A stretch of 64,000 bases of DNA from an uncultured Collinsella sp. (GTDB lineage: Bacteria > Actinomycetota > Coriobacteriia > Coriobacteriales > Coriobacteriaceae), in the NCBI GenBank assembly GCA_905208535.1, contig CAJLPI010000004.1, positions 65,159 through 129,158 on the forward strand, in the 5' to 3' direction. The notes under the pieces were generated by a model that saw only the letters and a program-made list of their open reading frames with translations, did no database searches and was not told the DNA's origin. Positions within the stretch are counted from its first letter, which is position 1, and each line of letters opens with the position of its first letter. Positions 27,937 to 63,851 of this stretch are shown in pieces. Position numbers and translations under genes: made by a program.

Positions 27937-27975
27937 TGCCGCCAGCAGCAACCTCGCTACTGGCGGCATTTTATT
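27937..27975 (+). terminator. intrinsic terminator of the aro operon
   Basis: tgccgccag/ctggcggca 9-bp stem followed by attttatt. Confidence 0.6.
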
Positions 27976-28019: not shown

Positions 28020-28469
28020 ATGCTGAGCATTCACCTGGGGGATTACCCCGGTTCCATCTACGATACCGAAACCTATTTTAGGAACTCATACTTGGACTCA
28101 TGGTTCGAAGACCCTATGGCCGCACAGATTATTAAAAGCGTGGACGGATCAGAGCTCATCGGTCCCCACAACATCGTAAGCAAGCAGCTGGGCTCAATCA
28201 CCCCACTCGAACTGTCCGGCGGCGTTAAGACGCTGCTGCTGGTGCGCAATCTCCCAAACATGGTGTTCAATGCATCCACTTGCGGAGATAACTGCGCTCG
28301 CTGGCTGCTCAAAATTGGCAAAGAGCAGGATGTGCTGGTGACCCTTTACCACATCATGAAGTTCCCCTGGAAGAACTTTGAAATCCGCATTGAAAACGAT
28401 GACCGCATCGTCAGAAACATGCAGGAGTTTGTCGGCGCCACGAATGACTTTTTGGATGTTGATGAGTAA
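28020..28469 (+). CDS. module copy 1, small subunit: Walker-A-less ABC-half-like protein (DUF4869-like)
   Basis: I place the start at MLSIHLGDY; the ORF-track start 27930 lies in the aroQ terminator. LSGGVKTLLL (nt 28212..), VFNASTCGDNCA and VTLYH. Two paralogues lie in this window. The stop overlaps the next ATG. Confidence 0.8.
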   Translation: MLSIHLGDYPGSIYDTETYFRNSYLDSWFEDPMAAQIIKSVDGSELIGPHNIVSKQLGSITPLELSGGVKTLLLVRNLPNMVFNASTCGDNCARWLLKIGKEQDVLVTLYHIMKFPWKNFEIRIENDDRIVRNMQEFVGATNDFLDVDE

Positions 28470-29467
28470 TGAAGGGAACGCATACCGTTGTCGTAGAGCG
28501 TGCAAAGGTCAAATACACACTCACCTTTAAACGCAACATTTCCTTCATTCGCGGCAACAGCGGCACGGGCAAAACGACGCTTATCTCGATGATTCGCGAC
28601 TACAACGACCGAGGACCGGAAAGCGGCGTTACACTCAGCTGCGACGTGCCCTGCGAAACGCTTTCCGGCAGACGTTGGAAGCGCGAGCTTTCGATTATCG
28701 AGGACTCAATAATCTTTTTAGATGAGGGCAACGAATTTATCTACTCAAAAGACTTCGCAAAAGCCGTTAACGGGTCGTCCAACTATTTTGTTCTGATATC
28801 TCGTCGAGACGCCAGCGAGCTCCCCTACAGTGTCGACGAAATCCTAAAGCTGGTAAACACCACGAGTAAAACAATCAATGGTCGAAAGAGCGATAAACGC
28901 TTCTACTCGGTAACAAAACCGATATACAGCCACACAGCAAACATGCTTTACCAGGACCTAAATGTTGGATTCGAGGCACCCGACGCCGTAGTTGTTGAGG
29001 ATAGCAAATCTGGCTATCAATTCTACGACGCTCTTTGCAACCGACTCGGGATCCCCTGCTATACCGCCACCGGCGTTGCGAATCTAAAACGTACGATTCA
29101 CGAATGTCCCGAGCAAAACATCCTTGCTATTGGAGACGGAGCAGCATTTGGTCCCTACATCGAAAAGGTGCTCGGACAGCGCGTTTACAAGAACGTACGC
29201 TTGTTCCTCCCCGAATCATTCGAGTGGACACTCCTGCAATCTGGCCTCATTCCCAGTAACGATATCTTAAAAATCCTCGAGGATCCCTCAAGCTATATCG
29301 AAAGCCGCGACTACATGAGCTGGGAGCGGTTCTTCACCGACGTATTGATCAAGTACTCGGCAGACACTCGCTACGTCTACAGAAAGGCACGGCTCAACGA
29401 GCAGTACCTAAAGCCGCAGGCGATGGATGCAGTTGCAAGCGTCTTGCCCGAGTGTCTGAAGGCATAA
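28469..29467 (+). CDS. module copy 1, large subunit: minimal P-loop ATPase fused to Toprim/DUF4435-like domain
   Basis: 332 aa. Walker A GNSGTGKT (28553..28576), Walker B IIFLDEG (D85-E86 at 28721..28726), FVLISR. C-half VVVEDSKSGYQFY (E177), IGDGAAFG (D223), LPESFEW. Confidence 0.8.
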   Translation: MKGTHTVVVERAKVKYTLTFKRNISFIRGNSGTGKTTLISMIRDYNDRGPESGVTLSCDVPCETLSGRRWKRELSIIEDSIIFLDEGNEFIYSKDFAKAVNGSSNYFVLISRRDASELPYSVDEILKLVNTTSKTINGRKSDKRFYSVTKPIYSHTANMLYQDLNVGFEAPDAVVVEDSKSGYQFYDALCNRLGIPCYTATGVANLKRTIHECPEQNILAIGDGAAFGPYIEKVLGQRVYKNVRLFLPESFEWTLLQSGLIPSNDILKILEDPSSYIESRDYMSWERFFTDVLIKYSADTRYVYRKARLNEQYLKPQAMDAVASVLPECLKA

Positions 29468-29472
29468 TGGCA

Positions 29473-29509
29473 GTGGGGAGGACCAACTTGGTCCTCCCCA
29501 CTTTTAATT
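29473..29509. terminator. bidirectional terminator between convergent genes
   Basis: gtggggaggacc-aactt-ggtcctccccac perfect 12-bp stem followed by tttt. Confidence 0.6.
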
Positions 29510-30494
29510 ACGCCTTCCTGATCACGTATGCCAGGCTGATATCGCAGGCGCAACGCACGATTGATGCAAAGAGCCACGATGTTGGCAGCGTCATAAGTAG
29601 AGGCATGGTCTGCCAGGGGATAAACCAATCGACCGCGTGGATTGCAAAGATCGCCAGACTGGCTTGTCCGCAAAACACGAGTCCTCGCTCAAAGGACCCC
29701 AAAACCGGCACGTCTTTCAACTTCTCCAACGCCATCGAAACCCAACAGACGCAGTAGCTACCCGCAACAGCAGCAACCGTCGCAACAACAAATCCATCCA
29801 CGCGGCGGCTCGAAAGCTCAAGCCCACTCAGCGCGGCAAGGACGAGCCAAGCAACACCGGCTCCAATAAACAGCAGAGGCTTGCTCACGCTCGGCTCCAG
29901 CCCCCTTTGGCGCGCCGTATAACCAATCCACATCAGCAAGACGATATAGCAGCTCAAATCCAAATCGAGCGGCAGGTAAGCACCAAAATAGCGAGACACG
30001 CTCAAACCGCAAAAGGCAATCGCGGCACAGACAACGCCCTGCCAAACAACCCCAATCCTGCGGCGATCAAACAGCCGCACGAGCGCATTAAACAGCAGGC
30101 GCGACGTAAACAGCGCCGCCAAAAACCATGCCATGCCAACGGCGGTAACGCCAAACCCAGGCACATCAACGCCCGAGGCAAACACAAGCGTCTTAAGCCC
30201 CGCAACCAGCGTACCGCTTGTCAAAGGAGCGCCGCTCATTAAGAACGTCGGCACCTGCCACGCCAGTGCAAGAACCACATACGGCACCAGCAGGCGCGAC
30301 ACCGAACCACTCAGCAGCTCGCGCCACGGCTTCGGCCTAAACGTATACCCGGCAAGAATAAAGAACACCGGCATGTGAAACGAGAAGATCGTGTGCCGCA
30401 AGGGAGAGGGATTTGGAACGGTGTGCCCCACAATGACCAGAATAATTGCGATCCCCTTTGCAATATCAATCCAGTCGAGCCTTTTGCTTCCCAT
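29508..30494 (-). CDS. membrane acyltransferase (acyltransferase_3 family)
   Basis: Start taken at MGSKRLDWIDIAKGIAIILVIVGH (RBS gaaggg). Typical family N-terminus and about 10 TM segments. Confidence 0.8.
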   Translation of the reverse strand: MGSKRLDWIDIAKGIAIILVIVGHTVPNPSPLRHTIFSFHMPVFFILAGYTFRPKPWRELLSGSVSRLLVPYVVLALAWQVPTFLMSGAPLTSGTLVAGLKTLVFASGVDVPGFGVTAVGMAWFLAALFTSRLLFNALVRLFDRRRIGVVWQGVVCAAIAFCGLSVSRYFGAYLPLDLDLSCYIVLLMWIGYTARQRGLEPSVSKPLLFIGAGVAWLVLAALSGLELSSRRVDGFVVATVAAVAGSYCVCWVSMALEKLKDVPVLGSFERGLVFCGQASLAIFAIHAVDWFIPWQTMPLLMTLPTSWLFASIVRCACDISLAYVIRKA

Positions 30495-30525
30495 TGCGAA
30501 CCCTTCAAAACCGCAGCACACAAGA

Positions 30526-30569: not shown

Positions 30570-30646
30570 TGGTGCTCCATGGCGGATTCGAACCGTCGAC
30601 CTTGGGATTAGAAGTCCCCTGCTCTATCCAACTGAGCTAATGGAGC
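30570..30646 (-). tRNA. tRNA-Arg (anticodon UCU), CCA encoded
   Basis: Hand-folded: GCTCCAT acceptor, GCTC-AGTTGGATA-GAGC D-arm, anticodon loop CTTCTAA, T-arm GACGG-TTCGAAT-CCGCC. Confidence 0.85.
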
Positions 30647-36864: not shown

Positions 36865-38319
36865 CTAGAGCGTCTTGAGGTACTCCCCCAGTTCTTCCTC
36901 CCAGTCGGGCATGTTGAACCCGACCGACTCGAGCTTGGACAGGTCGAGCGCGGAGTGGACCGGGCGCGGGGCGACGGGGCCCGCGGCGTTCGCGTAGTAG
37001 TCCGCGGTCGACACCGGCGCGACCCTGTCGCCGTTGCCGTTGGCTGCCTCGAAGACGGCGCGGGCGATGTCGGCCCAGGACCTGACGGCGCCGGATCCGG
37101 TGCAGTCGTAGGTGCCGTAGGGGGCGTGCGAGCCCAGCACGTGGAAGATGGCCTCGGCCATGTCGCGCGTGAAGGTCAGGCGCCCCAGCTGGTCGTCGAC
37201 CACGGTGACCTGCTCGAGCCCGTCCTCGGGGTCGGCGACGCGGTCGGACAGCCCCTTCATGGTCTTCACGAAGTTGTGGCCCTCGCCGATGACCCAGCTG
37301 GAGCGCATGATGTAGTGGCGCGGGCACCCTGCCACGGCGATGTCGCCGGCGGCCTTGGTCTGGCCGTAGACGGACAGCGGGCTGAGGGGCTCCTCCTCCG
37401 TGTGGACCTCGGCCGTGCCGTCGAAGACGTAGTCGGACGACACGTGGACCAGGGTGATCCCGTGCCCGGCGCAGGTGCGGGCGAGCAGGGCCGGGCCGGT
37501 CGCGTTGGCCTTCCAGGCGGTCACGCGTCCCTCGGGGGTCTCGGCCCTGTCGACCGCCGTGTAGGCGCCGCAGTTGATCACGGTGCCGTAGAGCGACCAG
37601 TCGTACTGCGCGTAGGCCGCCGGGTCGGACATGTCGAAGGTGTCGATGTCGCAGAAGTCGAAGTCCTTGGCGACCCCGCGCTCCTCCGCCAGCGCGCGCA
37701 CCGCATGGCCCAGCTGGCCGTTGCATCCGGTGACGAGGGTGCGCTTCGGCGCCATGGGTACGACGTCCTTGAGCATCGGGTGGTTGAGGTCGGCCTCGGA
37801 GACGGTGGCCTGGTCCAGCGGGATCGGCCACTCGATGGCGAGCTCGGGGTCGGCGAGGTTCACGAAGGTGTAGGTCCTCTTGAGCTCCAGCGACCAGTGG
37901 GCGTCCACCAGGTAGGTGTAGGCGGTGCCGTCCTCCAGGGCCTGGAAGGAGTTGCCAACGCCGCGCGGGACGTAGATGGCCTTGGAGGGGTCCAGGACGG
38001 TCGTGAACACCTTGCCGAAGGTGGCGCTGCCCTCGCGCAGGTCCACCCAGGCGCCGAAGACCGAGCCGCGGGCCACGGAGATGAACTTGTCCCAGGGCTC
38101 CGCGTGGATGCCGCGGGTGACGCCGCGGCTGTCGTTGTAGGAGATGTTGTTCTGGACGACCCTGAGGTCGGGGATGCCCAGGGCGGTCATCTTGGCGCGC
38201 TGCCAGTTCTCCTTGAACCAGCCGCGCGAGTCGCCGTGGACGGCCAGGTCGACGACCTTGAGGCCCCCGATGCCGGTCTCGGCGACGGAGAGGTCCTTCT
38301 CGAATGCGATGTCTGCCAT
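36865..38319 (-). CDS. rfbCD: fused dTDP-4-dehydrorhamnose 3,5-epimerase (RfbC) / dTDP-4-dehydrorhamnose reductase (RfbD)
   Basis: I place the start at MADIAFEKD (RBS taggag). N-half cupin (GDSRGWFKENWQ...RGIHAEPWDKF). C-half Rossmann reductase (LVTGCNGQLG...SSDYVFDG...YGQTKAAG). Confidence 0.88.
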   Translation of the reverse strand: MADIAFEKDLSVAETGIGGLKVVDLAVHGDSRGWFKENWQRAKMTALGIPDLRVVQNNISYNDSRGVTRGIHAEPWDKFISVARGSVFGAWVDLREGSATFGKVFTTVLDPSKAIYVPRGVGNSFQALEDGTAYTYLVDAHWSLELKRTYTFVNLADPELAIEWPIPLDQATVSEADLNHPMLKDVVPMAPKRTLVTGCNGQLGHAVRALAEERGVAKDFDFCDIDTFDMSDPAAYAQYDWSLYGTVINCGAYTAVDRAETPEGRVTAWKANATGPALLARTCAGHGITLVHVSSDYVFDGTAEVHTEEEPLSPLSVYGQTKAAGDIAVAGCPRHYIMRSSWVIGEGHNFVKTMKGLSDRVADPEDGLEQVTVVDDQLGRLTFTRDMAEAIFHVLGSHAPYGTYDCTGSGAVRSWADIARAVFEAANGNGDRVAPVSTADYYANAAGPVAPRPVHSALDLSKLESVGFNMPDWEEELGEYLKTL

Positions 38320-38439
38320 ATGGGAAAAGCTCCTATCGAAGAGGTTCAGGTTGCGGGCGCCCGCGCGGGGACGCAGGATCATCCCCATGCCCTGCGGCCC
38401 CGCGCGGGCGCCCCGCGGTGCGGTTCGCCGGGGTTCTGC

Positions 38440-39525
<1,086 letters not shown>

Positions 39526-39534
39526 TCAACAAAA

Positions 39535-40518
39535 CTATCGGACATTTCGGCATGCGATAAGAGCCATAACCTTCGCAGAATTACTTCCCCCACAAAAAGC
39601 TTCCGGAATGCTGTCTTTGTCATACCGGAAGACCGAATTCCCAGTTTTATCGCGTAAGTACTTATAGAAGAAGTCCTCCCAGCTTTTAAACTTCTCACTG
39701 TCTGCAAACGCTTCCGGCTCTTGCAAAACCGCTTTGGCATCTAACCCTGAAATTACGCCGGAGCTCAGCAGAAGCCACTCAAACGACTCGGGAAGACAAA
39801 CCGTAACAGCATCGCGGTGAATGTCTTGCAGCTTAAGGACACGGTCCGCATAGCACCCAAATGCCGCTCCGTCCACAACAACAAACACGCGATCGTCGAG
39901 ATGCTGATCCAACCAGCCCAAAATCGCGCTGTTCGTCATGGCAGAAGCACAGGAAAGCTCACTGTCAGCGAAATGCCGTTCAAAGAACTGGAAACCAGAC
40001 TTACTGTCCTCGCATAGAAGGATAGAAAAGTCCTGTTTTGGCGCCGACCGGGAAATAGCATAACGATGATTCCCACGATCTTGATAAACAGGGACGAAAG
40101 AATGGTATTTTCCGCTCGTCTTAATCTTGTAAATCTCATCCACGCTATACGGAAGATTAGGGAAATCAGCCCTTGAGATCAGCACGAAATAATTCGAGGA
40201 ATACAGCACATGATGGGCAAACTCATCAGAATGAATCTCTTTTAAGCCCTCATCGACAAATACAATCGAGTCATGAACGGACGAAAGCTGGTTTCGCCAA
40301 TCATAATCGGTCAGGGCGACACAGGGACAATCGCATTGCAAGGAAACACCCGACTGCTCGCCCGTTCGTATGTAGTCTGCGACCATGTCAAACAGTGTCG
40401 TCTTACCCGTGCCGCTATCGCCACGCACAATAGTGATGTTCCGCTTGATGGTAAATGTGTACTTGGTTCCCCTGCGGCGGGAAATCTTAACGAAATGCGA
40501 ACCGTTCATAAGCAGCAC
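39535..40518 (-). CDS. module copy 2, large subunit: minimal P-loop ATPase + Toprim/DUF4435-like domain
   Basis: 327 aa. GDSGTGKTTL, IVFVDEG, SNYFVLISR, LPYSVDEI, LLCEDSKSGFQFF, VVDGAAFG, LPESFEW. Collinear with 28469..29467. Confidence 0.8.
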   Translation of the reverse strand: MLLMNGSHFVKISRRRGTKYTFTIKRNITIVRGDSGTGKTTLFDMVADYIRTGEQSGVSLQCDCPCVALTDYDWRNQLSSVHDSIVFVDEGLKEIHSDEFAHHVLYSSNYFVLISRADFPNLPYSVDEIYKIKTSGKYHSFVPVYQDRGNHRYAISRSAPKQDFSILLCEDSKSGFQFFERHFADSELSCASAMTNSAILGWLDQHLDDRVFVVVDGAAFGCYADRVLKLQDIHRDAVTVCLPESFEWLLLSSGVISGLDAKAVLQEPEAFADSEKFKSWEDFFYKYLRDKTGNSVFRYDKDSIPEAFCGGSNSAKVMALIACRNVR

Positions 40519-40962
40519 CTACAGATACGGAATCGACTCGTGAATCAATTCGGCCATGTTGTGAACGATTCGGCCGCTATTCACGACTTTAATTTTAAAA
40601 TCCTCGCGGCCAAAGTCCATCACATGATAGAGATTCACAACGAGCTTGCGGTCTTTCGCCATATCGAGAATCCACTTGGCACAGTTATCACCACAGGTAG
40701 AAGCGTTAAAAATATGCTTACGATCAAATCTCATAAGCAGCAGCGTTTTCACGCCACCAGAAAGCTGGAGCGGGGAAATGGACCCAAGCACAGGGCTTTC
40801 GATGAGGTTTTCGGAGACAACATCCGATCGATCGACATCTTTAATTATCGAGACTGCATAGGGATCCGTAATCCAAGAAGACCGGTAAGAGTTTTTGAAA
40901 TATGTCGCTGTGTTGTAAATCGCTTCTGGCATATCGCCAAAGTAGACGCTTAACACATCCAC
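40519..40962 (-). CDS. module copy 2, small subunit: Walker-A-less ABC-half-like protein
   Basis: 147 aa. YFGDMPEAIYNTATYFKNSY, LSGGVKTLLL, IFNASTCGDNCAKW, VNLYHVM. Abuts the large gene. Confidence 0.8.
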   Translation of the reverse strand: MDVLSVYFGDMPEAIYNTATYFKNSYRSSWITDPYAVSIIKDVDRSDVVSENLIESPVLGSISPLQLSGGVKTLLLMRFDRKHIFNASTCGDNCAKWILDMAKDRKLVVNLYHVMDFGREDFKIKVVNSGRIVHNMAELIHESIPYL

Positions 40963-41001
40963 TCCTAATCATATTGTCTTTATGGTCAACGTAATCATAA
41001 C

Positions 41002-41031
41002 GAAAAGGGCCACCAGATAAACGGTGGCCCC
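41002..41031 (-). terminator. intrinsic terminator directly after rfbA
   Basis: gggccacc/ggtggccc stem with an 8-nt loop, followed by UUUU on the minus strand. It lies between rfbA and module copy 2. Confidence 0.55.
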
Positions 41032-41051
41032 TAAAAGAAAACAAGCCGGCG

Positions 41052-41951
41052 CTAATACTCGCGCGGGCTGTTGACGATCTCGCCGGCGGCGACCTTCTTC
41101 AGGTGCCGGCCGTAGACCGACTTGCCGTAGGCCTTGGCTGCCTCCTCCAGCTCGGCGGTCGTGATCCAGCCGTTCTCCCAGGCGATCTCCTCGGGCACGG
41201 ACACGGGCAGGTCCTGGGAGTGCTCCACGGCGCGGACGAACTCAGCGGCCTCGTGCAGGCTCTCCATGGTGCCGGTGTCCAGCCACGCGTACCCGCGGCC
41301 GAGGGTCACGACGGATAGCGTCCCCTCCTCCAGGTACATCTGGTTGAGCGTGGTGATCTCCAGCTCGCCGCGCGCGGAGGGCTCCACCCTATGCGCCTTG
41401 GCGGCCACGTCGCCCGGGTAGAAGTAGAGTCCGGTGACGGCGTAGGAGCTCTTGGGGTCGGCGGGCTTCTCCTCGATGGAGACGGCCCTCCCCTCGCGGT
41501 CGAACTCCACGACGCCGAAGCGCTCCGGGTCGTCCACGTGGTAGCCGAAGACCGTGGCCCTGCCCGACTCTGCGTTCTGGACGGCTCGCGTCAGGTGGCG
41601 CGACAGGCCGTTGCCGTAGAAGATGTTGTCGCCCAGCACCAGGGCGCACGGCTCGCCGTTAATGAACTCCTCGCCGATGGTGAAGGCCTGCGCCAGGCCG
41701 TCGGGGCTCGGCTGCTCGGCGTAGGAGAGGTTCACGCCGTAGCGCGAGCCGTCCCCGAGCAGGCGCTCGAAGTTGGGGAGGTCCGTCGGCGTGGAGATGA
41801 CCAGGATGTCCCGGATGCCCGCCAGCATGAGGGTGGACAGCGGGTAGTAGATCATGGGCTTGTCGTAGACCGGCAGCAGCTGCTTGGAGGTCACGAGCGT
41901 GAGCGGGTACAGGCGCGTGCCGGACCCGCCGGCGAGGATGATGCCTTTCAT
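41052..41951 (-). CDS. rfbA: glucose-1-phosphate thymidylyltransferase
   Basis: 299 aa, [18 protein letters not shown]...[18 protein letters not shown]. Confidence 0.93.
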
Positions 41952-42053: not shown

Positions 42054-43097
42054 TTGATGAACAACCGCAAGGACACAACCCGTAGAGACGACATAACGAA
42101 CGTGAGGGCCCTTGCAATATTCCTTGTAGTCCTAGGCCACAGCATTATTCTGTATTCAAGTGCGTGGGGATATTATCCAACTGAACAAAAATCAATTCTG
42201 TTGGATAATCTCAAATTCTTAATAAACGGAATCCAGATGCCCTTGTTCTTTTCGTTATCTGGCTTTTGTTTTTTATGGAGCTGGAATCGATCAAGCGATT
42301 TTATAAGTCAGATCATTAAAAAAGCTCAACGCTTAATTATCCCCTATATCATGATTGGAATATGTTGGCTCTTCCCCATCAGGATGCTCGTTAAGTATCC
42401 CTATTACAATGGCCAAACTATATCGCACATCATCTTTAAATCAATTCTGTTGGGCGAAGACAACGGTCACCTTTGGTTTCTCCCGACTCTTTTTTTCATT
42501 ACAGCAACCACGTCGTGCATCTTTCAAATACTCGAAAAGAGCCCTCTAACAAGTTTTAAGGTTCCGATAGTTTTCGGCGCTTCAATTTATCTTTACCATT
42601 TTGGAATACCATCAGCGAACAGGTATATCAATTTGGCAGAAGCAAATGCGATATGGTTTGCGCTTGGCCTAACAATCCACTACTTGGAAGCAAACAAATG
42701 GTTCGAGAGTTATAAAAGGCGTAAAAGCCTATCAATAGTCCTAATACTATTATTCCTTGTAAACTTACTAAAACAAGTTGTGCCCCCCATTGCTTCCACC
42801 GCCCTTACATGCATGGCGGTTGCATCAATTAATTGCGTCATCCCCCAAAAGGCAAACCTACTAACCGAAAAGATTAGCAAAAAAAGTATGGGAATATATC
42901 TTTTTCATTCTCCACTGGTTTACATTTCTTTTACCTACTGGCCCAACATAGCCCCAATGGCGATGGCAGCAATTAACCTGATTGGATTTGGATCAGTCGC
43001 CTATATGTTGACGAATCTAATTCGAGTCACAAATATGGGTTGGATAATCGGGGAAACGCCAAAGGCATCACACGATAAGAAACAGGGAAAGCAATAG
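42054..43097 (+). CDS. membrane acyltransferase (acyltransferase_3 family), low GC
   Basis: 347 aa. Family N-terminal motif RDDITNVRALAIFLVVLGHS and about 10 TMs. Confidence 0.8.
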   Translation: MMNNRKDTTRRDDITNVRALAIFLVVLGHSIILYSSAWGYYPTEQKSILLDNLKFLINGIQMPLFFSLSGFCFLWSWNRSSDFISQIIKKAQRLIIPYIMIGICWLFPIRMLVKYPYYNGQTISHIIFKSILLGEDNGHLWFLPTLFFITATTSCIFQILEKSPLTSFKVPIVFGASIYLYHFGIPSANRYINLAEANAIWFALGLTIHYLEANKWFESYKRRKSLSIVLILLFLVNLLKQVVPPIASTALTCMAVASINCVIPQKANLLTEKISKKSMGIYLFHSPLVYISFTYWPNIAPMAMAAINLIGFGSVAYMLTNLIRVTNMGWIIGETPKASHDKKQGKQ

Positions 43098-43110
43098 CCA
43101 AGGAATACAG

Positions 43111-44142
43111 CTAATTAAACTGTTTCTTCCATTTATCGATGCTCGTCCAGGGAAGATTAATCTCAGTTTTAACGGGATGGTTTATCCAATCAGCTATTTT
43201 AAGGAGATAGCCGTCCTCGCGTTCAAGAACGGGAAGCCCCGTATCCTCACCGATCTGACGGGCTCGATTATCAATTGCAATGATTAGGGAGCGATGTCCT
43301 CCATTTAAACAGCGAATGCCCGCATGGAGACGCGTCCCCACATAATCAAATTCCTCGGTTTCAATTACACGATTAAGGTCTTCGATATTGGGGCCAATAA
43401 CATTAAATTGCGTCAGATCGGCTATTTGATCAAGACATCAATCAACATCATGGCTTCCTTGAACCCAGATCGTTACCTTTTCGTATTCCGACGACAGCAA
43501 TTCCAGCATCTTACGGTCACGTTCCGCATCGAAACAATAATCGGTAATTGACGTAACAACGTTTTTAGAACGCTTAGAGGAAATCTCAAGTTGCTTAGAT
43601 GGGGTTAACGACCACATGGTCGGACATGCGGTATTAAGAACATTCTCTATGCCAATAGAGTTAAGCCTCTTCTTAGTCATTTCATCTCGAACACTATGAA
43701 GATATTCATCGGATAGCAAGGTTTTATAAAACTTCTTTGTATAGGCGTCGATCGCATCGTCCACCCCAATGTCAGACATGCCCACGCCGAACAAAACAAC
43801 GTTTCTATTATTGCCCAACCGCTTGGCAAGCGCCCATTGCTGCTGATCAGCCATATGCGTATACAGAATATTTGTGCCGCACAACAGCTTTACGTGTTCA
43901 GGATACATTTCAAGCTCTTTGGAATAATAGTGCGTTGCCACATGGGGCAACGCAGCACCAAAGATTTGATCCGCGATACAGCCACAGGCATCCATGATCA
44001 CATGGTCACCAGAGTTCTCGCTTCCCATAGCCGTATCCAAAAGGAGATAGCGTTCCTGCTTAACACCATCGGATTTTTCATCGTGCCTGCGTGATGTCGC
44101 AGAGGCTTTAAGTAGCTGAGTCCATTGGTTAAAGCGCGCCAT
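43111..44142 (-). pseudogene. polysaccharide pyruvyl transferase interrupted by one in-frame TGA (43438..43440)
   Basis: ORFs 43438..44217 and 43111..43341 are in the same frame (876 nt apart). My translation across the gap reads GSHDVD*CLDQIADLTQFNVIGPNIEDLNRVIETEEFDYVGTRLHAGI with no other stop. I infer the start ATG at 44142 (TAATG overlap with the upstream gene). Confidence 0.7.
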
Positions 44143-45707
44143 TAGTTTCTCCGAAATAAACGTTTGAGTAGAGCAACGTGACCGCCAACGACACCCGTCG
44201 ATGCAGAAGGCTGACACGGTTCACAATATTCATCAGATAGGTTAAAAACGGCAGACACGCTGCATGCGCCACTTTCAACCGAACGAACAACAGGATGAGC
44301 GTTGCGAGAAGGCGAAAGACAGACAAGTTGGCTTAGCTCGGCGACGCAAAGCGGATTTTTGCCGTCTTCCGCAAAAGAGTATATATGAATGCGAAGATAG
44401 GCCTCTTCATCATCATTTAAAAACAGCGGAACATGCCCCGCAAAATGGCCGTCCCTAGATTCAAGACTAATCCAGCGAATATCAGACTGATCAAGGGCGC
44501 GCCAAACAACTGCGCGAACATCCGCAGGCATCAAAGACGACTCAAAACGCACAGTCAAATCAACAGAAGAAGCTTGGATAAGCGTTTGAGACATGGCAGA
44601 CGATAGCAATCGAGCATCAGCAAGACGATCGCTGAGCAAGAAGACCTTACTTTGTTCTTCAGTTTTTGGCACATTCCCGAAGGCGGACTTCCCGCTAGCC
44701 AAGGATGGCTCTTCATTCAGATAACGCGTAAAGGCCTCGAAGAACATTTCATTTTCACGCTTAATCGACGTACAGCTAAATCTATTAGGCGAATCGCATT
44801 TTGAGCCTGAAAGAGCCTCAAGAATAGAAGAAGCAATGCCACAAGCAGAGGGCTCAGCGAGGTGGATGGTGCCCTCCGGAAAGTCGAGTAGGTTATTCTC
44901 ACGGTTTATTTCAATTACCGAGAGCTTCGATGCAAGCATTTCGAAAGGCAGGCGAGAGGGATTAGTCACGCTCAACGATACGCCGGCAACACACTTGGCA
45001 TAAAGCGAGGCGCATTCATCAGCAGTCAAGATGCCGAGGCCGCGTACGCGTGGATCATGAATGGGAGGCATTGCGTCTTCGCCGTATAAATAAACGACAA
45101 CTGCATCGTCGAGCTTGAGAAGCAATTTAATTGCATCAAGCAACATGCCAGACAAACGTCGATCCTTATTGGATTGATAGATAGCACAGACGGCATACTC
45201 TCTGCTTAGATTTTGTTCCTGCGCAGTATATATATCGCTAACGCCAAAATCACAATATGGGACTTCATGCGAATAATAGGGTTCAACTTTTTTAGAAAGC
45301 CATCTGCCTATCGTTATGGGGTTTAGTTCATAACGATAACTTGCTTCGGCATTTAGATACATCTCCCCCATCGGATAGAACCAAGGTTCAAAATCCTGAA
45401 TGAAGTAGAACTTATGGGCGCACTTCTGCATAGATGCAAAGTGCGCCGTATTCCAAGCGGTGGCGATTACTGCAAAAAAATCCTCGGGCACACTCGGTGC
45501 CACAAGAACTTCTTTAGGCGAATAATCAAACCAATCCTTTATTTCGGCCTGAACTCTATGAGCACTTTTGTATGCTTCACAGCCCGGCATAATGTAAAAG
45601 TAGTTCTCATATCCACGAGAATCTAGAAAGGAAGCCTTGCTGCAGATGGTTCGAAAGCCGCCAGAACCCTTTGCCGGCGGAGATATTATCCAGGCAATTT
45701 GTTTCAT
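44142..45707 (-). CDS. glycosyltransferase, WsaF-like (candidate rhamnosyltransferase) with extra C-terminal domain
   Basis: 521 aa. The N-terminus IISPPAKGSGGFRTI and YFIQDFEPWFYP resemble the WsaF family. The last ~170 aa are unassigned. Confidence 0.6.
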   Translation of the reverse strand: MKQIAWIISPPAKGSGGFRTICSKASFLDSRGYENYFYIMPGCEAYKSAHRVQAEIKDWFDYSPKEVLVAPSVPEDFFAVIATAWNTAHFASMQKCAHKFYFIQDFEPWFYPMGEMYLNAEASYRYELNPITIGRWLSKKVEPYYSHEVPYCDFGVSDIYTAQEQNLSREYAVCAIYQSNKDRRLSGMLLDAIKLLLKLDDAVVVYLYGEDAMPPIHDPRVRGLGILTADECASLYAKCVAGVSLSVTNPSRLPFEMLASKLSVIEINRENNLLDFPEGTIHLAEPSACGIASSILEALSGSKCDSPNRFSCTSIKRENEMFFEAFTRYLNEEPSLASGKSAFGNVPKTEEQSKVFLLSDRLADARLLSSAMSQTLIQASSVDLTVRFESSLMPADVRAVVWRALDQSDIRWISLESRDGHFAGHVPLFLNDDEEAYLRIHIYSFAEDGKNPLCVAELSQLVCLSPSRNAHPVVRSVESGACSVSAVFNLSDEYCEPCQPSASTGVVGGHVALLKRLFRRN

Positions 45708-45716
45708 TTAAAGCAC

Positions 45717-48119
45717 TCAAATCGCTTCGTAGTCAAAAGGATCGAACTTATATAACGCTGCGCGCTTGGGATCTCGAGAAAAGTTAACGGAGAACCATGG
45801 ATCCCCCTCAGAGAATCGTTCGGACCAGTTATGCAGCAATCGTGCCTTATCCTCAAAATGCTTATGAGAGCGAGATCTACTATCAAGGGATTTGTCAACA
45901 CATGCCAAATGGTAGAGACATGCCTCTGGTGTATAGATCACCTTTAACCCAGCCTGAGAAGACTTGAAGCAAATATCAACATCCGAATAGTCAAGAAGAT
46001 ACGACTCGTCAAAACCACCCAGACGATTAAAATGTTCGCGTGAAATAGCTAAGCAGACTCCACTCACCGCCGATACATCCCTCACGGTCAATGGCATATA
46101 GATATAGCCAGGAGAAGAGCGATGAATGCCTTGCGATAGGTTGACGATTGATTCTCCAACATAAGACAGGCCTGCCTGTTGCACAATGCCGTCAAGATCG
46201 CACGTCATTGTTCCAACAACGCCAACATCCTCTCGTTGGGAAAAACCAACGAGAGTCTTTAACCACAAGGAGTCTAGTGCCTGAATATCGTCATGAACAA
46301 AGACGAGTTGCTCGCCATGCGCGGCAAGAGCACCGGCATTTCTCCATGTAGATATATTAAACGGGTCATCAAGCGCGTGAACGATATAGCGACAACGAAG
46401 TCCAGAGATCGATTGCTGAACAGCAGCTTCCGCATCCTGCGAGCACACGAAAACAACTTCAAGATCATCAAAATCGGTGTAATTGATTGAAGATACAAGA
46501 GTCGAAAGAACCGAAGAATTGCCGCGGGTGGTAACGATTAATGAACAGGACTCAGATGAAGAAACATCATAAATAGGGCTATATCTAAAAGCACGATTAT
46601 GAGAGTTGACCACAGTCGCCTTGATACCGCATCTATCAAGGTGCTCCTGAACCGCTTTTATTCCAGCAAGGGTTGCATAGGGCTTACTATCGGAATTACC
46701 CGCAGTCGAATTCTCGCTTATTCTCCAGTGATACAAGATTTTAGGAACGTGATGGATCGTCCCACCAAGTTCGGCAATCTTCAGCACCATGGCATGGTCT
46801 TGGGCGCCATCCAACTCGCTGTTAGAAAGGTCAATTCTGTCTAAACATGCCCTTTTAACAGTAAGAAGGTGGCAAATATAATTGTTGTCACGAGCCATAT
46901 CAAGACTAAAATCCGGCTTAAAAGTAGGATGAGCCAAGGACCCGTCAGGCAATAGCTTATCTTCATCACAATAAAGAAGATTGATTTCAGCATTTTGATT
47001 TAAAGCACAGGCGTACTCAAACAAGATATTCGGTTCGAGAACATCATCATGATCGAAAAAGCAGAGGTAGTCTCCCTTGGCCATCTTGATTCCGACATTG
47101 GTGTTCTCAGTGATACCTAGATTGCCCTCAAGATTAGTCACTATAATTCTAGAGTCTGCAGTCACATACTCGGAGACCAAGTCGCTAAGGCCCTCGTAAT
47201 CTGGCGTAGAGTTAACCAGGATGAGTTCCCAATTCGAATACGTCTGAGCAATGACAGAATCAGCCATATCCCTGAAGAAATTCAAGGGAGTCTTATATAG
47301 AGGAACGATGATTGAAAACAAGGGCTGGTATGCAAATTTTATTTGCGCTTGTACCCGCGAATCGGATCCAGTCAATCTGCGCCCAGAAAACCAGGACAAA
47401 TAACGGGGTTGATCGAATGCGGACACATGGTTCCGATCGACCTCATCCAAAAGCTCCTTGAGCATATCTTTCTTTAGATTGATAAACGTATCCAGATGAC
47501 CAGAAGCCCTGTGCATGCAAATGCACAGGCTATCCCCGACCTCAGGAATATGAAGCGAGAAATTTGTTAAACAAGGATTCGCATCGGCTATTAAGTTATT
47601 AAATAACAAAGATTCCCCAACAACGCAGGCTTCTTCATTAAAAGCGATAATACGATCACCCTCAAGGCAATCAGTACCCGAAAGAACACCTCTAACGATT
47701 ACGCCATCAACGCAGGGAATAAAGCTCTCAATTTGGATAGAAGCGAGCGCATGCACGCCAGAACGGTCAATATTGCGAAATCGTCCACAATGCTCCGCGT
47801 GCAGCAAGCCGTTAACTTTCGACTCAATCGAAAACTTGCCAGGATTGATGCGACGCTGATAAATTATTTTATCTCCGCTAAAGAAAGAAAGAGATTGGTC
47901 GACACCAAAATCGGCAAGGACAACAATAAATTCAGTCTCTGAAAAAGGGATGATTCTTGCGGGCAGAATTTGCCCATTGGGTGATTGCGACTCCACGGCA
48001 TCCGGGAAAACGGATGCGGCTTCATACAGTATATATAGTTTGCCGTCGCCACGGCAATTTAGCTTATTGTTAAATTCGGTATTAAAAACTATGCCCATAT
48101 CAGCAACACTTTCCAACAA
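45717..48119 (-). CDS. multidomain glycosyltransferase: unknown N-domain + two GT2 domains
   Basis: 800 aa. GT2-1 FSIIVPLYKTP...FFDHDDVL. GT2-2 CSLIVTTRGN...FVHDDI. The first ~270 aa carry no recognisable motif. Confidence 0.8.
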   Translation of the reverse strand: MLESVADMGIVFNTEFNNKLNCRGDGKLYILYEAASVFPDAVESQSPNGQILPARIIPFSETEFIVVLADFGVDQSLSFFSGDKIIYQRRINPGKFSIESKVNGLLHAEHCGRFRNIDRSGVHALASIQIESFIPCVDGVIVRGVLSGTDCLEGDRIIAFNEEACVVGESLLFNNLIADANPCLTNFSLHIPEVGDSLCICMHRASGHLDTFINLKKDMLKELLDEVDRNHVSAFDQPRYLSWFSGRRLTGSDSRVQAQIKFAYQPLFSIIVPLYKTPLNFFRDMADSVIAQTYSNWELILVNSTPDYEGLSDLVSEYVTADSRIIVTNLEGNLGITENTNVGIKMAKGDYLCFFDHDDVLEPNILFEYACALNQNAEINLLYCDEDKLLPDGSLAHPTFKPDFSLDMARDNNYICHLLTVKRACLDRIDLSNSELDGAQDHAMVLKIAELGGTIHHVPKILYHWRISENSTAGNSDSKPYATLAGIKAVQEHLDRCGIKATVVNSHNRAFRYSPIYDVSSSESCSLIVTTRGNSSVLSTLVSSINYTDFDDLEVVFVCSQDAEAAVQQSISGLRCRYIVHALDDPFNISTWRNAGALAAHGEQLVFVHDDIQALDSLWLKTLVGFSQREDVGVVGTMTCDLDGIVQQAGLSYVGESIVNLSQGIHRSSPGYIYMPLTVRDVSAVSGVCLAISREHFNRLGGFDESYLLDYSDVDICFKSSQAGLKVIYTPEACLYHLACVDKSLDSRSRSHKHFEDKARLLHNWSERFSEGDPWFSVNFSRDPKRAALYKFDPFDYEAI

Positions 48120-50133: not shown

Positions 50134-50302
50134 GGAGCTAATTCACCTTTATCCAAATCAAGCTGCAAGGGCCCTCGAAGAATCGTTCCCAGTCATCTGG
50201 ATGACAAGTATGGGCACCAAGCACTGTTCACAACTGTTGAAAGTAATATAAGTAGGGAAATTCACATCCAGATGATTTATACGCCAAAGCGAAACGCATA
50301 GC

Positions 50303-50647
50303 CTACTTTTCCTTCTCCCTACTTAACGCAACAGCCTGAACAAGCGAGTTTAAACGCTCTTCCTGTCGAGAGAGACGAAGAGAATTGCAGAAATCACGGA
50401 CCACAAGAACGGCAATAACGTAAAGGAACACGAAGTTAGAAGCCGACATGAAACCAAATAGACTCGAAAGCCACATTGCAACTTGTGGAAAAACGCCCAA
50501 AATTACAAAACTGACGCTGAATAGCAGCCAAAACAGAGAATCCAAAACTTGCATTTGGGATTTTTTTAATTTGCGCAATACAAACACGAATACCAAAACA
50601 GCGCAAACAAGAAGCAAAATACGAAGAGAGACCGGCAAATGGATCAC
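50303..50647 (-). CDS. small 3-4 TM membrane protein (DUF2304-like)
   Basis: 114 aa. Overlaps the upstream GT2 by 4 nt. The call rests on topology and context. Confidence 0.55.
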   Translation of the reverse strand: MIHLPVSLRILLLVCAVLVFVFVLRKLKKSQMQVLDSLFWLLFSVSFVILGVFPQVAMWLSSLFGFMSASNFVFLYVIAVLVVRDFCNSLRLSRQEERLNSLVQAVALSREKEK

Positions 50648-51336: not shown

Positions 51337-51401
51337 ATAAACCGATCTCTAGTTTTTCTCATTATTATAGCGAGAGATATACAAATGGTTAAATAGACAC
51401 A

Positions 51402-52026: not shown

Positions 52027-52135
52027 ACGGCATCGAGAGCCCCCGCAACAAACCTCGTCCTAGATTTCAAAGCTAGCAATCTTCCGAGTGTGAACTGCAT
52101 GGTTACGCCATGTCTCTCTAAGCGTAGGTGCACAA

Positions 52136-53080: not shown

Positions 53081-53116
53081 CTAAAACCTCCAACACCGCT
53101 GCGGGAGCAAACGCTA

Positions 53117-54214: not shown

Positions 54215-54247
54215 CCATCTTGTTCTTCCAATACGGAAAGGGACTAA

Positions 54248-56961: not shown

Positions 56962-56976
56962 TCAGAAATTAAAGCA

Positions 56977-63292: not shown

Positions 63293-63742
63293 GTGCCAAC
63301 AATTCACTATGGTGATATGGAAAACGTTATCTATAATACGTCGGTTTACTTCGATAACGTCTATTCGCCCGAATGGTTTCAAGATGCTTTTGCGCAGAGA
63401 ATTATTAAATCCATTAATAAGGGCGGCGTGGTTGGACCCGGCGCAATAAACACCAAGATCTTAGGCATCATCCCTCCTGAAAGGCTGTCGGGAGGCACCA
63501 AGACGCTGCTGCTCATGCACTTCATGCCTCAGAACATATACAACGCCACAACCTGTGGCGACAATTGCGCTTACTGGATTCTGAGAATCGCCGCACAGCA
63601 TGATCTGACAATCAACCTCTACCATCTGATGGATTCTGGAAACGGCAAGTTCACGGCAACCGTTGCAAACACGGGTGATGTCGTTCACACGATGTTCGAC
63701 CTTGTCCCTATAGCCGCAAAATGCCTAAGGGAGAACTCCTGA
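63293..63742 (+). CDS. module copy 3, small subunit (orphan): Walker-A-less ABC-half-like protein
   Basis: 149 aa, GTG start after gaagggg. IHYGDMENVIYNTSVYFDNVY, LSGGTKTLLL, IYNATTCGDNCAYW and INLYHLM. Confidence 0.75.
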   Translation: MPTIHYGDMENVIYNTSVYFDNVYSPEWFQDAFAQRIIKSINKGGVVGPGAINTKILGIIPPERLSGGTKTLLLMHFMPQNIYNATTCGDNCAYWILRIAAQHDLTINLYHLMDSGNGKFTATVANTGDVVHTMFDLVPIAAKCLRENS

Positions 63743-63743
63743 C

Positions 63744-63851
63744 GCACGTTTTCGATATGATAAGAGCCGCTTGAACGAGGAGTACTTGAACCCCACCGCT
63801 CTTGCAGCTCTTGAGGATACTTTGCCGGAACTTGGCATTACTTCGCACTAA
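63744..63851 (+). pseudogene. remnant (last ~35 codons) of the module large subunit
   Basis: My translation ARFRYDKSRLNEEYLNPTALAALEDTLPELGITSH* aligns with the C-termini of copy 1 (YVYRKARLNEQYLKPQAMDAVASVLPECL) and copy 2 (FRYDK). It begins 1 nt after the small-gene stop. Confidence 0.7.

What the first reader, a model, noticed from the sequence alone, without database searches (positions are those of the whole stretch)
28020..28810. Complementary motif degeneracy suggests a split, asymmetric ABC-type ATP site shared between the two subunits
**Small protein (all three paralogues)**
- It conserves LSGG(V/T)KTLLL.
- About 18 residues later comes (V/I)(F/Y)NA(S/T)TCGDNCA. This has the spacing and shape of hhhhDEPtsgLD, but with Asp-Glu replaced by Asn-Ala.
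- About 27 residues after that comes (V/I)(T/N)LYH(I/V/L)M, which is H-loop-like.
- It has no Walker A.

**Large protein**
- It has a canonical Walker A and an intact Walker B (DEG).
- Its signature-position segment is poorly conserved (TLSGRRWKREL in copy 1, ALTDYDWRNQL in copy 2).
- Its H-loop position is FVLISR, with Arg instead of His.

**Inference**
- In ABC dimers ATP is sandwiched between the Walker A of one subunit and the LSGG of the partner.
- Each protein keeps exactly what the other lacks, so the pair could form one composite active site and one dead site.
Basis: inference. Interest (0 to 1): 0.7.

Follow-up and report, generated by a model that had tools for sequence, protein, structure and literature searches.

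The report
Dead ABC-like partner of mini-OLD ATPase
A small uncharacterised protein (DUF4869) folds like an ABC ATPase that lost its own ATP-binding parts but kept the "signature" loop, and it is almost always encoded next to a compact ATPase–nuclease-like protein, so the two probably share one ATP site, though that contact was not tested here.

Summary
**Observation: confirmed.** The motifs are also conserved family-wide.

**Small protein (149 aa).**
- It is Pfam DUF4869, with no literature found.
- Its AlphaFold2 model (pLDDT 93.8) matches only ABC-type ATPases among its top 50 PDB hits. The scores are weak.
- It has no Walker A lysine and no catalytic Glu.
- Its LSGG.K signature and the following CGDNC segment are nearly invariant.

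**Large protein (332 aa).**
- It has an invariant Walker A, a Walker B Asp-Glu, and an invariant Arg at the switch position.
- Its signature position is degenerate.
- Its C-terminal domain looks Toprim-like. Fold hits are MutS/MutS2, OLD nuclease, GajA and retron-Eco8.

**Link between the two.**
- The genes overlap by one base and are adjacent across diverse gut bacteria.
- They occur fused on 9 contigs.
- Small proteins with a decayed signature mostly lack the partner.

**Caveats.**
- Published work reports that a degenerate signature is normal in OLD-family ATPases. This weakens the "complementarity" argument from the large protein's side.
- No complex model could be run, so the LSGG-to-P-loop contact is untested.

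**Verdict:** a plausible asymmetric ABC head. It is a new variant of OLD-like conflict systems.

The parts
27954..27975 (+). Terminator-like hairpin with a T-run after aroQ. It sets the upstream boundary of cassette copy 1.
   Evidence: scan; sequence read. A TATAAT and a GGAG ribosome-binding site precede the ATG at 28020.
28020..28469 (+). Small subunit, copy 1 (149 aa). It is DUF4869, an ABC-ATPase-like pseudo-enzyme.
   Evidence: Pfam PF16163 at E 1.7e-47. AlphaFold2 pLDDT 93.8. Foldseek top 50 hits are all ABC-type ATPases.
28035..28067 (+). Degenerate P-loop position (LGDYPGSIYDT), between strand 1 and the first helix. It has no Lys.
   Evidence: Secondary structure; conservation (G7 76/96, no GK[ST]).
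28212..28232 (+). LSGGVKT, an ABC-signature-like motif at the N-terminal cap of helix 67-77.
   Evidence: hhalign aligns it to the NBD (ABC nucleotide-binding domain) signature at P=0.003.
28263..28298 (+). VFNASTCGDNCA. This is the Walker-B-position strand with Asn-Ala in place of Asp-Glu, followed by a D-loop-position CGDNC.
   Evidence: Asp occupies position 84 in 5 of 96 representatives.
28332..28358 (+). VLVTLYHIM, a strand followed by His111 at the H-loop (switch) position.
   Evidence: His 67/96, Tyr 16/96.
28469..29467 (+). Large subunit, copy 1 (332 aa). It has a compact P-loop ATPase (about residues 1-165) and a Toprim-like domain (about 170-260), followed by a helical tail. Its start overlaps the small gene's stop by one base (TAATG).
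28553..28576 (+). Walker A motif, GNSGTGKT.
   Evidence: G29, S31, G34 and K35 are invariant in 66 homologues.
28658..28690 (+). Signature-position segment TLSGRRWKREL, at the start of helix 70-76 before the Walker B strand. It is degenerate, with an invariant Trp70.
28706..28729 (+). Walker B motif SIIFLDEG (Asp85, Glu86).
   Evidence: Invariant.
28784..28804 (+). YFVLISR, a strand followed by invariant Arg112 at the switch (H-loop) position.
28982..29227 (+). Toprim-like core. Glu177/Asp178 follow strand 1, Asp223-Gly224 follow strand 3, and Glu249/Glu252 follow strand 4.
   Evidence: Secondary structure. Invariance. Weak whole-length fold matches to OLD 6p74, GajA 8sm3 and retron-Eco8 9lp9. 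No Toprim HMM hit.
29472..29502 (+). Strong intrinsic terminator (14-bp stem) ending cassette copy 1.
40519..40956 (-). Small subunit, copy 2 (145 aa, GTG start).
   Evidence: (PF16163 at E 1.6e-57).
39535..40509 (-). Large subunit, copy 2 (324 aa). It sits between rmlA and rmlB.
63293..63742 (+). Small subunit, copy 3 (149 aa, GTG start), with an intact signature.
63735..63851 (+). 3' remnant of a deleted large gene, matching residues about 297-331.

Best explanation
The finding is a self-contained two-gene cassette.

**Large protein.** It is a miniature OLD-like enzyme. It has a compact ABC-class (MutS/OLD-like) ATPase with an intact Walker A, a Walker B Asp-Glu and an Arg switch. This is fused to a Toprim-like, probably nuclease, domain. 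It lacks both a functional signature motif and the helical dimerisation insert that holds classical OLD nucleases together.

**Small protein (DUF4869).** It is a stand-alone ABC-fold pseudo-ATPase. It has lost the parts that act on its own nucleotide (the P-loop lysine and the catalytic Asp-Glu). It keeps the parts that act across the dimer interface in ABC ATPases, namely the LSGG.K signature and the D-loop-position segment CGDNC, plus a switch His.

**Proposed mechanism (inferred, not shown).** The two proteins are made in roughly equal amounts from overlapping genes. They form a head-to-tail ABC-type heterodimer with one composite ATP site, built from the large protein's P-loop and Walker B and the small protein's signature and D-loop. 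The opposite site is dead. ATP binding and hydrolysis at the single site then gates the Toprim-like effector.

**Likely role.** The cassette probably serves as a defence or addiction-type module. It is low in GC, sits on conjugative elements and in variable islands, and the large gene is often lost while the small gene survives.
For: **Shown.**
- The small protein belongs to DUF4869. Its confident model matches only ABC-type ATPases in the top 50 PDB hits: CydDC, MsbA, the T. maritima SMC head at probability 0.84, cohesin, PtuA, AriA, RecN and ABCE1.
- The order of secondary-structure elements matches the ABC order. It runs strand, degenerate P-loop, helix, LSGG capping a helix, a short strand ending in Asn-Ala, a helix, and a strand ending in His.
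- The elements that act in trans are the most conserved, whereas the cis catalytic residues are absent. Asp survives at the Walker B position in a minority, consistent with descent from a Walker B.
- A profile of the small protein's family aligns its LSGG to the NBD (ABC nucleotide-binding domain) signature of three real NBDs (P=0.003, probability 10%).
- The large protein has invariant Walker A, Walker B and Arg112, and a degenerate signature.
- Its best fold hits are MutS2/MutS ATPase domains (probability 0.9-1.0). OLD, GajA and retron-Eco8 match over about 300 or more columns.
- It has an N-terminal hairpin before the P-loop and partial HMM hits to AAA_23, AAA_29, ABC_tran and SMC_N.

**Physical link between the two genes.**
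- The stop and start codons overlap by one base.
- The pair is intact in 68 of 80 Collinsella loci and in 58 of 81 small-gene copies found in the 80 diverse metagenome loci.
- It is also found in a conjugative element of Eubacteriales, in viral contigs and on an Agathobacter plasmid.
- A natural fusion of the small protein with the ATPase domain occurs on 9 contigs.

**Functional coupling.**
- Five of 5 sampled small proteins with a decayed signature lack a canonical partner. Four of 4 with an intact signature have one (Fisher p=0.008).
- My approximate hand tally over all clusters was 27/3 (intact signature, partner present/absent) against 2/6 (decayed signature), p=7e-4.

**Foreign origin and own transcription unit.**
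- GC content is 47.5-50%, against 61-68% in the flanks.
- The cassette has its own terminators.
Against: - No complex was modelled or measured, so the LSGG-to-P-loop contact is inference only.
- All Foldseek scores for the small protein are weak (E 4e-3 to 0.15, TM 0.34-0.42). No HMM or profile search links it to ABC ATPases.
- The two families show no detectable similarity to each other.
- A degenerate or absent signature is reported as normal in OLD-family ATPases that still hydrolyse ATP (PMC7049728). The large protein may therefore not need a donated signature.
- The large protein's ATPase class is ambiguous at sequence level: AAA_22 and nSTAND3 score as well as ABC families. In the viral structure library the hits are generic P-loop NTPases.
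- One small protein with LAGG has an intact partner (L160), and a few small proteins with an intact signature stand alone (L185, L089, copy 3).
- The Toprim assignment has no HMM support, and DxD is replaced by D-G.
- The association test uses few, partly hand-tallied clusters.
Confidence: 0.5

Rival explanations
1. Antitoxin or inhibitor model. The small protein binds the large protein and keeps its nuclease or ATPase silent. It might do this by occupying the dimerisation face so that no productive ATP sandwich forms. The conserved LSGG/CGDNC surface would then serve binding or sensing, not catalysis. Release or degradation of the small protein would activate the large one.
For: - The small gene lies upstream and overlaps the large gene, as in type II toxin-antitoxin operons.
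- The small gene is more conserved than the large one in Collinsella, at 97-100% against 92-95% identity.
- The large gene is repeatedly frameshifted, internally deleted or reduced to a 3' remnant while the small gene stays intact. Examples are window copy 3, L035, L063, L071, L075, L132 and L138.
- Small genes standing alone exist (L022, L083, L087, L089, L185).
- In the related PARIS system, an ABC ATPase sequesters a Toprim nuclease (PMC11464382).
Against: - It does not explain why precisely the signature Ser-Gly-Gly-x-Lys is kept while the rest of the ATP site decays.
- It does not explain why the signature decays once the partner is gone.
- It is not mutually exclusive with a composite ATP site.
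- No toxicity data exist.
Confidence: 0.25
2. Accessory or adaptor model. The large protein works as an OLD-like homo-oligomer that needs no signature. The small protein is a separate sensor or adaptor, for example one that binds a nucleotide, a metal or nucleic acid through LSGG, Cys88/Cys92 and His111. It would dock somewhere other than the ATP site.
For: - OLD ATPases hydrolyse ATP with a degenerate signature.
- The nearly invariant CxxxC plus His is unusual for a D-loop and could form a metal site.
- Small proteins that stand alone, occur in tandem or carry N-terminal extensions suggest some partner-independent role. Examples are P0308, L107, L102, P0249, P0259 and P0261.
Against: - The large protein lacks the helical dimerisation insert that holds OLD dimers together (one search compared).
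- The fusion joins the small protein directly to the ATPase domain and omits the Toprim domain.
- Signature integrity tracks presence of the partner.
Confidence: 0.17
3. The motif resemblance has no functional meaning. DUF4869 would be a decayed relic domain whose LSGG is kept for folding only, and the pairing of the genes would be incidental.
For: - All sequence-based searches fail to connect DUF4869 to ABC ATPases.
- Fold scores are weak.
Against: - The motif is conserved across more than 2000 clusters.
- All 50 top fold hits belong to one superfamily.
- Adjacency is conserved in many lineages, and a fusion exists.
Confidence: 0.05

Closest known systems
OLD-family nucleases (Class 1 P2 Old / Thermus scotoductus OLD, Class 2 GajA of Gabija, Class 3 retron-Eco8 effector)
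   Same: - Both have an N-terminal ABC-class ATPase followed by a C-terminal Toprim-type domain in one polypeptide.
- Both have a degenerate signature motif (PMC7049728).
- There are fold matches to 6p74, 8sm3 and 9lp9 over about 300 or more columns.
- Both are associated with mobile elements and conflict systems.
   Different: - The large protein is about 330 aa, against 500-600 aa for OLD nucleases.
- It has no helical dimerisation domain inserted in the ATPase.
- The switch residue is Arg, not His.
- The Toprim DxD is D-G.
- It has no hit to Pfam, PADLOC or NCBIfam OLD, Toprim or DUF4435 models.
- It has an obligatory small ABC-like partner that OLD systems lack.
PARIS (AriA ABC ATPase + AriB Toprim nuclease; 'Class 4 OLD')
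   Same: - Both are two-gene systems built from ABC-fold and Toprim parts.
- AriA appears among the small protein's fold hits (8v47_H).
- In PARIS the ATPase partner controls a Toprim effector.
   Different: - In PARIS the ATPase and Toprim are on separate proteins, and AriA is an active homodimer with two nucleotide sites.
- Here the ATPase and the Toprim-like domain are on one protein, and the separate protein is a catalytically dead ABC fold.
- PADLOC AriA hits cover the P-loop only (E 0.05 and 0.008).
Asymmetric ABC dimers with one consensus and one degenerate ATP site (e.g. TM287/288, TAP1/TAP2, CFTR; from general knowledge of ABC transporters)
   Same: - One partner carries a good signature with degenerate catalytic residues.
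- The other partner carries good Walker A and B motifs with a degenerate signature.
- The result is one active composite site.
   Different: - In those proteins the degenerate partner still binds ATP through an intact Walker A, and both partners are full-size NBDs (ABC nucleotide-binding domains).
- Here the degenerate partner is a 150-aa stand-alone protein with no P-loop lysine at all.
- Formation of the complex has not been shown.
MutS / MutS2 ATPase domain
   Same: - These are the best fold matches of the large protein's ATPase (9kce, 7ai6 and 1wbb, probability 0.9-1.0).
- Both are compact ABC-class domains without the transporter-type helical lobe.
- In MutS the composite sites are completed in trans.
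   Different: - There is no sequence similarity beyond the P-loop.
- The large protein has no mismatch-binding or clamp domains.
Pfam DUF4869 (PF16163)
   Same: The small protein is a full-length member (E 1.7e-47 and 1.6e-57).
   Different: - Pfam lists the family as of unknown function.
- No paper in the library mentions it.
- I found no mention in that library of the ABC-fold assignment or the partner made here.

Membership tests
Pfam DUF4869 (PF16163), small protein | Full-length match to the family HMM above the gathering score | tested here: met
   160.9 and 193.3 bits against a cut-off of 28.9.
ABC-type ATPase superfamily, small protein | ABC-type alpha/beta core fold | tested here: met
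   The top 50 Foldseek PDB hits are all ABC-type ATPases. Scores are weak (E 4e-3 to 0.15, TM 0.34-0.42). The order of secondary-structure elements is consistent.
ABC-type ATPase superfamily, small protein | Walker A GxxxxGK[ST] | tested here: not met
   The P-loop position reads GDYPGSIYDT. The family has no conserved Lys there.
ABC-type ATPase superfamily, small protein | Walker B hhhhD followed by a catalytic Glu | tested here: not met
   The position reads Asn84-Ala85. Asp occupies position 84 in 5 of 96 representatives, and the Glu is never present.
ABC-type ATPase superfamily, small protein | Signature motif LSGGQ-like at the N-terminus of a helix, preceding the Walker B strand | tested here: met
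   LSGGVK caps helix 67-77. Counts are S66 95/96, G68 90/96 and K70 92/96. It aligns to the NBD (ABC nucleotide-binding domain) signature at P=0.003.
ABC-type ATPase superfamily, small + large | ATP-dependent head-to-tail dimer with the signature of one subunit over the P-loop of the other | not testable with these tools
   No multimer prediction was available. Only indirect support exists: operon structure, a natural fusion and the association test.
ABC-type ATPase superfamily, large protein | ABC-class (rather than AAA+/STAND/RecA) P-loop domain | tested here: inconclusive
   Supporting evidence is MutS/MutS2 at probability 0.9-1.0, OLD and GajA hits and a beta-hairpin before the P-loop. Against it, HMM hits cover the P-loop only and are mixed (AAA_22, nSTAND3, AAA_23, AAA_29, ABC_tran), and the viral-library hits are generic.
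OLD-family nucleases, large protein | N-terminal ATPase with intact Walker A and B motifs | tested here: met
   K35, D85 and E86 are invariant.
OLD-family nucleases, large protein | Helical dimerisation domain inserted in the ATPase (PMC7049728) | tested here: not met
   The model shows only a beta-hairpin (residues 125-151) between the ATPase and the C-terminal domain, with no helical insert (one search compared).
OLD-family nucleases, large protein | C-terminal Toprim with metal-binding acids (E...DxD, plus second-metal acids) | tested here: inconclusive
   The model has a four-strand beta-alpha pattern. Invariant E177/D178, D223-G224 and E249/E252 sit at the strand ends. There is no DxD and no Toprim or DUF4435 HMM hit. 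Fold hits are weak.
OLD-family nucleases, large protein | Match to OLD, GajA or AriA/AriB family models | tested here: not met
   PADLOC, Pfam and NCBIfam give only P-loop-limited hits, all below their cut-offs.
PARIS (AriA/AriB) | Separate active ABC ATPase and separate DUF4435 Toprim protein | tested here: not met
   Here the ATPase and the Toprim-like domain are fused, and the separate protein is catalytically dead.

The most novel reading that the evidence does not exclude
DUF4869 may be a new kind of ABC component: a stand-alone, nucleotide-blind 'signature donor' subunit. It would complete the single ATP site of a miniature ATPase-Toprim enzyme, replacing the dimerisation insert and homodimer of classical OLD nucleases. 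The pair would then define a new, widespread class of OLD-like conflict systems in gut Firmicutes and Coriobacteriia, with over 2000 sequence clusters. In Collinsella it is fixed in three copies inside the cell-wall polysaccharide locus.
Probability: 0.4. Interest if true: 0.72.

Novelty: new variant of a known kind. Interest (0 to 1): 0.6.

Why it matters
- It would give a function and a fold to a large domain of unknown function (DUF4869) and to its unannotated partner. The partner is sometimes mislabelled 'translation initiation factor 2'.
- It would add a minimal, genetically split and extremely asymmetric version of the ABC ATP sandwich, in which one subunit contributes only the trans-acting elements. 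That would be a clean system for separating the roles of the signature and D-loop from those of the Walker motifs.
- It would also extend the OLD, Gabija and PARIS group of ATPase-Toprim conflict systems to abundant human-gut bacteria.

Tried and rejected
**Searches that gave nothing.**
- Sequence and profile searches of the small protein against PDB sequences, using a single sequence and alignments of 47 and 69 sequences, found no ABC hit.
- hhalign of the small protein's family against the large protein's family showed no similarity, so a recent-duplication origin is not supported.
- hhalign of the small protein's family against the window's own TagH NBD (ABC nucleotide-binding domain) gave a spurious short match.
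- An HMM of the small protein's family against all ORFs of the window and selected loci found no NBD.
- Only 18 unique NBD sequences could be harvested locally, too few for a good ABC profile.
- Pfam, NCBIfam, PADLOC and PHROGs gave only P-loop hits for the large protein and no Toprim or DUF4435 hit.
- The viral structure library gave non-specific P-loop hits for the large protein.
- Literature searches for DUF4869 and PF16163 returned zero papers. The ABC-ATPase classification paper (PMC7544218) is not held.

**Ideas considered and dropped.**
- I first guessed the window was from Bifidobacterium. Record titles show it is Collinsella.
- P0270 (427 aa) looked like a fusion of the small and large proteins. 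Its C-terminal part is unrelated.
- The 333-aa gene after P0301 is not a copy of the large protein. It carries another divergent DUF4869-like domain.
- I considered that the small protein plus the large protein's N-terminus form two halves of a single ABC domain, as in Rad50. Both model as complete compact domains, each with its own Walker-B-position strand, so I rejected this.
- Both structure-prediction jobs went to the single proteins, so no linked-chain or fusion model was attempted.
Full report
**What is there**

The finding's coordinates (28020-28810) cover a 149-aa gene (28020-28469) and the first third of a 332-aa gene (28469-29467). The second gene's ATG overlaps the first gene's TAA by one base. 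tblastn finds two more copies in the window:
- a complete pair on the minus strand (small 40519-40956, large 39535-40509);
- a third small gene (63293-63742), followed only by a 3' remnant of a large gene.

The window is from a Collinsella chromosome, as the record titles of near-identical loci show (NCBI names).

**The small protein**

- It is a full-length member of Pfam DUF4869 (E 1.7e-47). It has no NCBIfam, PADLOC or PHROGs assignment, and no paper mentions it.
- The family is large: 2093 clusters at 50% identity.
- Across 96 diverse representatives the most conserved positions are the signature-like L-S-G-G-x-K-T (S 95/96, second G 90/96, K 92/96) and the segment N-A-S-x-C-G-D-N-C (C88 89/96, N91 90/96, C92 94/96). 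His111 is kept in 67/96 and is Tyr in 16.
- No Walker A lysine is present. The Walker-B position is Asn-Ala, with Asp surviving in a few members, and the catalytic Glu is never present.
- A confident AlphaFold2 model (pLDDT 93.8) places LSGG at the N-cap of a helix. This is followed by a short strand ending in Asn-Ala, a helix, and a strand ending in His111, which is the ABC order of signature, Walker B, D-loop and H-loop. At the N-terminus a strand, loop and helix sit where the P-loop would be.
- Foldseek against the PDB returns only ABC-type ATPases among the best 50: CydDC, MsbA, P-glycoprotein, SMC and cohesin heads, PtuA, AriA, RecN, ABCE1 and ABCF1. Scores are weak (E 4e-3 to 0.15, TM 0.34-0.42).
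- Sequence methods do not see the relationship. The only hint is an hhalign match of LSGG to the signature of three real NBDs (ABC nucleotide-binding domains), at P=0.003 and probability 10%.

I conclude that DUF4869 is an ABC-fold pseudo-ATPase. It kept the elements that act across the dimer interface and lost those that act on its own nucleotide.

**The large protein**

- It has no Pfam family. HMM hits are limited to the P-loop and mix ABC/SMC-type and AAA/STAND-type models.
- In 66 homologues, Walker A (G29, S31, G34, K35), Walker B (D85, E86) and Arg112 at the switch position are invariant.
- The signature position reads h-h-x-G-x-x-W. The Ser is kept in only 24/66, the second Gly is not kept, and Trp70 is invariant.
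- The model (pLDDT 92.3) shows a beta-hairpin before the P-loop strand, a compact ATPase of about 120 residues, a long beta-hairpin, and then a four-strand beta-alpha domain. Invariant Glu177/Asp178, Asp223-Gly and Glu249/Glu252 sit at the ends of strands 1, 3 and 4 of that domain, which is the Toprim pattern. A helical tail follows.
- The best fold matches are MutS2/MutS ATPase domains (probability 0.9-1.0). OLD nuclease 6p74, GajA 8sm3 and the retron-Eco8 effector match over about 300 or more columns with weak scores.
- The viral library gives only generic P-loop hits.

The protein is therefore best described as a miniature OLD-like ATPase-Toprim enzyme. It fails membership of the OLD family proper on three counts: it has no helical dimerisation insert, no DxD and no model hit.

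**Are the two linked?**

- The small gene is immediately followed by the large gene in several independent data sets:
  - 68 of 80 Collinsella loci;
  - a conjugative element of Eubacteriales, between sortase and MobC/relaxase genes;
  - the viral contigs that have room for it;
  - an Agathobacter plasmid;
  - 58 of 81 small-gene copies found in the 80 diverse metagenome loci, where Walker A and the Asp-Glu are intact.
- In Ruminococcus albus the pair is split by an IS21 insertion. In one lineage the gene order is reversed.
- A 271-aa protein that fuses DUF4869 to the ATPase domain, without Toprim, is found on 9 contigs.
- I tested whether the small protein's signature depends on the partner. 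Five sampled representatives with a decayed signature (LSVNVK, FSNEIK, LSRSTK, LSRSSK, LSAAVQ) all lack a canonical large gene next to them. Four with intact LSGG all have one (Fisher p=0.008).
- Adding all other non-redundant clusters gives roughly 27/3 (intact signature, partner present/absent) against 2/6 (decayed signature), p=7e-4. The tally is approximate and partly made by hand. Exceptions are L160 (LAGG with a partner) and L185 (intact signature, standing alone).

**Mechanism**

The pair would form a head-to-tail ABC-type heterodimer with one composite ATP site, built from the large protein's P-loop, Walker B and Arg switch and the small protein's signature and D-loop segment. The opposite site would be dead. 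The small subunit would functionally replace the homodimer partner and dimerisation insert of classical OLD nucleases.
- Shown: the folds, the motif conservation, the gene linkage, the fusion and the association.
- Inferred: the complex geometry, the ATP dependence and the nuclease activity.

Two facts temper the reading.
[quoted passage not shown] The large protein's degenerate signature is therefore a family trait, not proof that it needs a donor.
- The pattern of decay also fits an antitoxin-like inhibitor. The large gene is repeatedly frameshifted, deleted or reduced to a 3' remnant while the small gene persists, and the small gene is more conserved. The two ideas are compatible: a partner that clamps the ATP site could hold the enzyme off.

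**Context**

- Copy 1 is its own transcription unit. It lies between a terminator-like hairpin after aroQ and a strong terminator at 29472-29502.
- All copies have 47.5-50% GC, against 61-68% in the neighbouring genes.
- The window is a rhamnose-type cell-wall polysaccharide locus.
- Copy 2 sits inside the rml operon in the same orientation (rmlA, small, large, rmlB, rmlCD). This block recurs in at least 9 of 10 other Collinsella places examined, with varying flanks; in the tenth (L123) the flanks differ.

Occurrence on conjugative elements, plasmids and viral contigs, and next to a SIR2-like gene, points to a defence or addiction-type role. This is inference.

**Novelty and score**

No description of DUF4869 or of this pair was found, and PADLOC has no model for it. 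It is a new variant of a known kind, namely OLD/PARIS-like ATPase-Toprim systems and asymmetric ABC dimers. It is not categorically new. The interest score is 0.6. The fold assignment and the partner dependence are solid and useful. The striking claim, a signature-only subunit completing a split ATP site, remains at about even odds until a complex is modelled or measured.

Noticed in passing
window 36865-41951 (-): Cassette copy 2 is embedded, in the same orientation, inside the dTDP-rhamnose operon (rmlA, small, large, rmlB, rmlCD). The same block recurs in at least 9 of 10 other Collinsella places examined, while the flanking glycan genes vary; in the tenth (L123) the flanks differ. The cassette's GC content is 47.5%, against 65-68% for the rml genes.
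   Followed up: partly
window 63293-63851; also L132, L138: Copy 3 keeps an intact small gene, but only the last 32-35 codons or so of the large gene. The same pattern of small gene plus C-terminal remnant occurs independently in metagenome loci. This suggests recurrent deletion of the large gene.
   Followed up: partly
window 28281-28295 and 28350-28352 (small protein C88, C92, H111): The CxxxC pair in CGDNC is more conserved than the signature itself (C88 89/96, C92 94/96). It lies next to the conserved His111. It could be a metal or redox site at the position of the dead ATP site.
   Followed up: no
L098 2586-3401 (P0250/P0389): This is a natural fusion of DUF4869 with the ATPase domain only (271 aa, no Toprim). 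It has LAGG in place of LSGG and Asp-Asn in place of Asp-Glu. A second, very divergent DUF4869 gene lies at 3893-4330.
   Followed up: partly
L104 1080-1517 and L105 244-681 (P0308): A DUF4869 gene standing alone, with a decayed signature (LSRSTK), heads an operon of IspD/TarI-like, alcohol dehydrogenase and glycosyltransferase genes. In L104 an IS200-type transposase gene lies just upstream. This is a second link between this family and cell-surface glycan loci.
   Followed up: no
L107 857-1792; L102 2968-3969; P0249, P0259, P0261: Several other DUF4869 arrangements exist. These are tandem DUF4869 genes, a 333-aa protein with a C-terminal divergent DUF4869-like domain, and DUF4869 proteins with N-terminal extensions of about 130 aa.
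   Followed up: no
window 30573-30646 (-): A tRNA gene lies just beyond cassette copy 1 and the adjacent acyltransferase gene (29508-30521). Together with the GC drop after aroQ, this suggests an insertion hotspot at the edge of the polysaccharide locus.
   Followed up: no
window 42054-59469: This is a long low-GC (45%) block of glycosyltransferase, flippase, DUF2142, pyruvyl-transferase and WsaF-like genes. It is probably a horizontally exchanged glycan module flanked by the cassette copies.
   Followed up: no
window 28469-29467 (public annotation): Close homologues of the large protein (the same 90%-identity cluster, plus the Ruminococcus albus homologue) are named 'translation initiation factor 2' in some NCBI/UniRef records. 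This name has no support in any search done here.
   Followed up: yes
L185, downstream of 3460: A small gene standing alone, with an intact signature, is followed by an ORF. From reading its sequence (PFLFLGSGITRRY), I take it to have a SIR2-like N-terminus, which hints at a defence-island setting. No search was run on it.
   Followed up: no
window 62195-63292: About 1.1 kb upstream of copy 3 has no long ORF in the three plus-strand frames read. It was not examined further.
   Followed up: no
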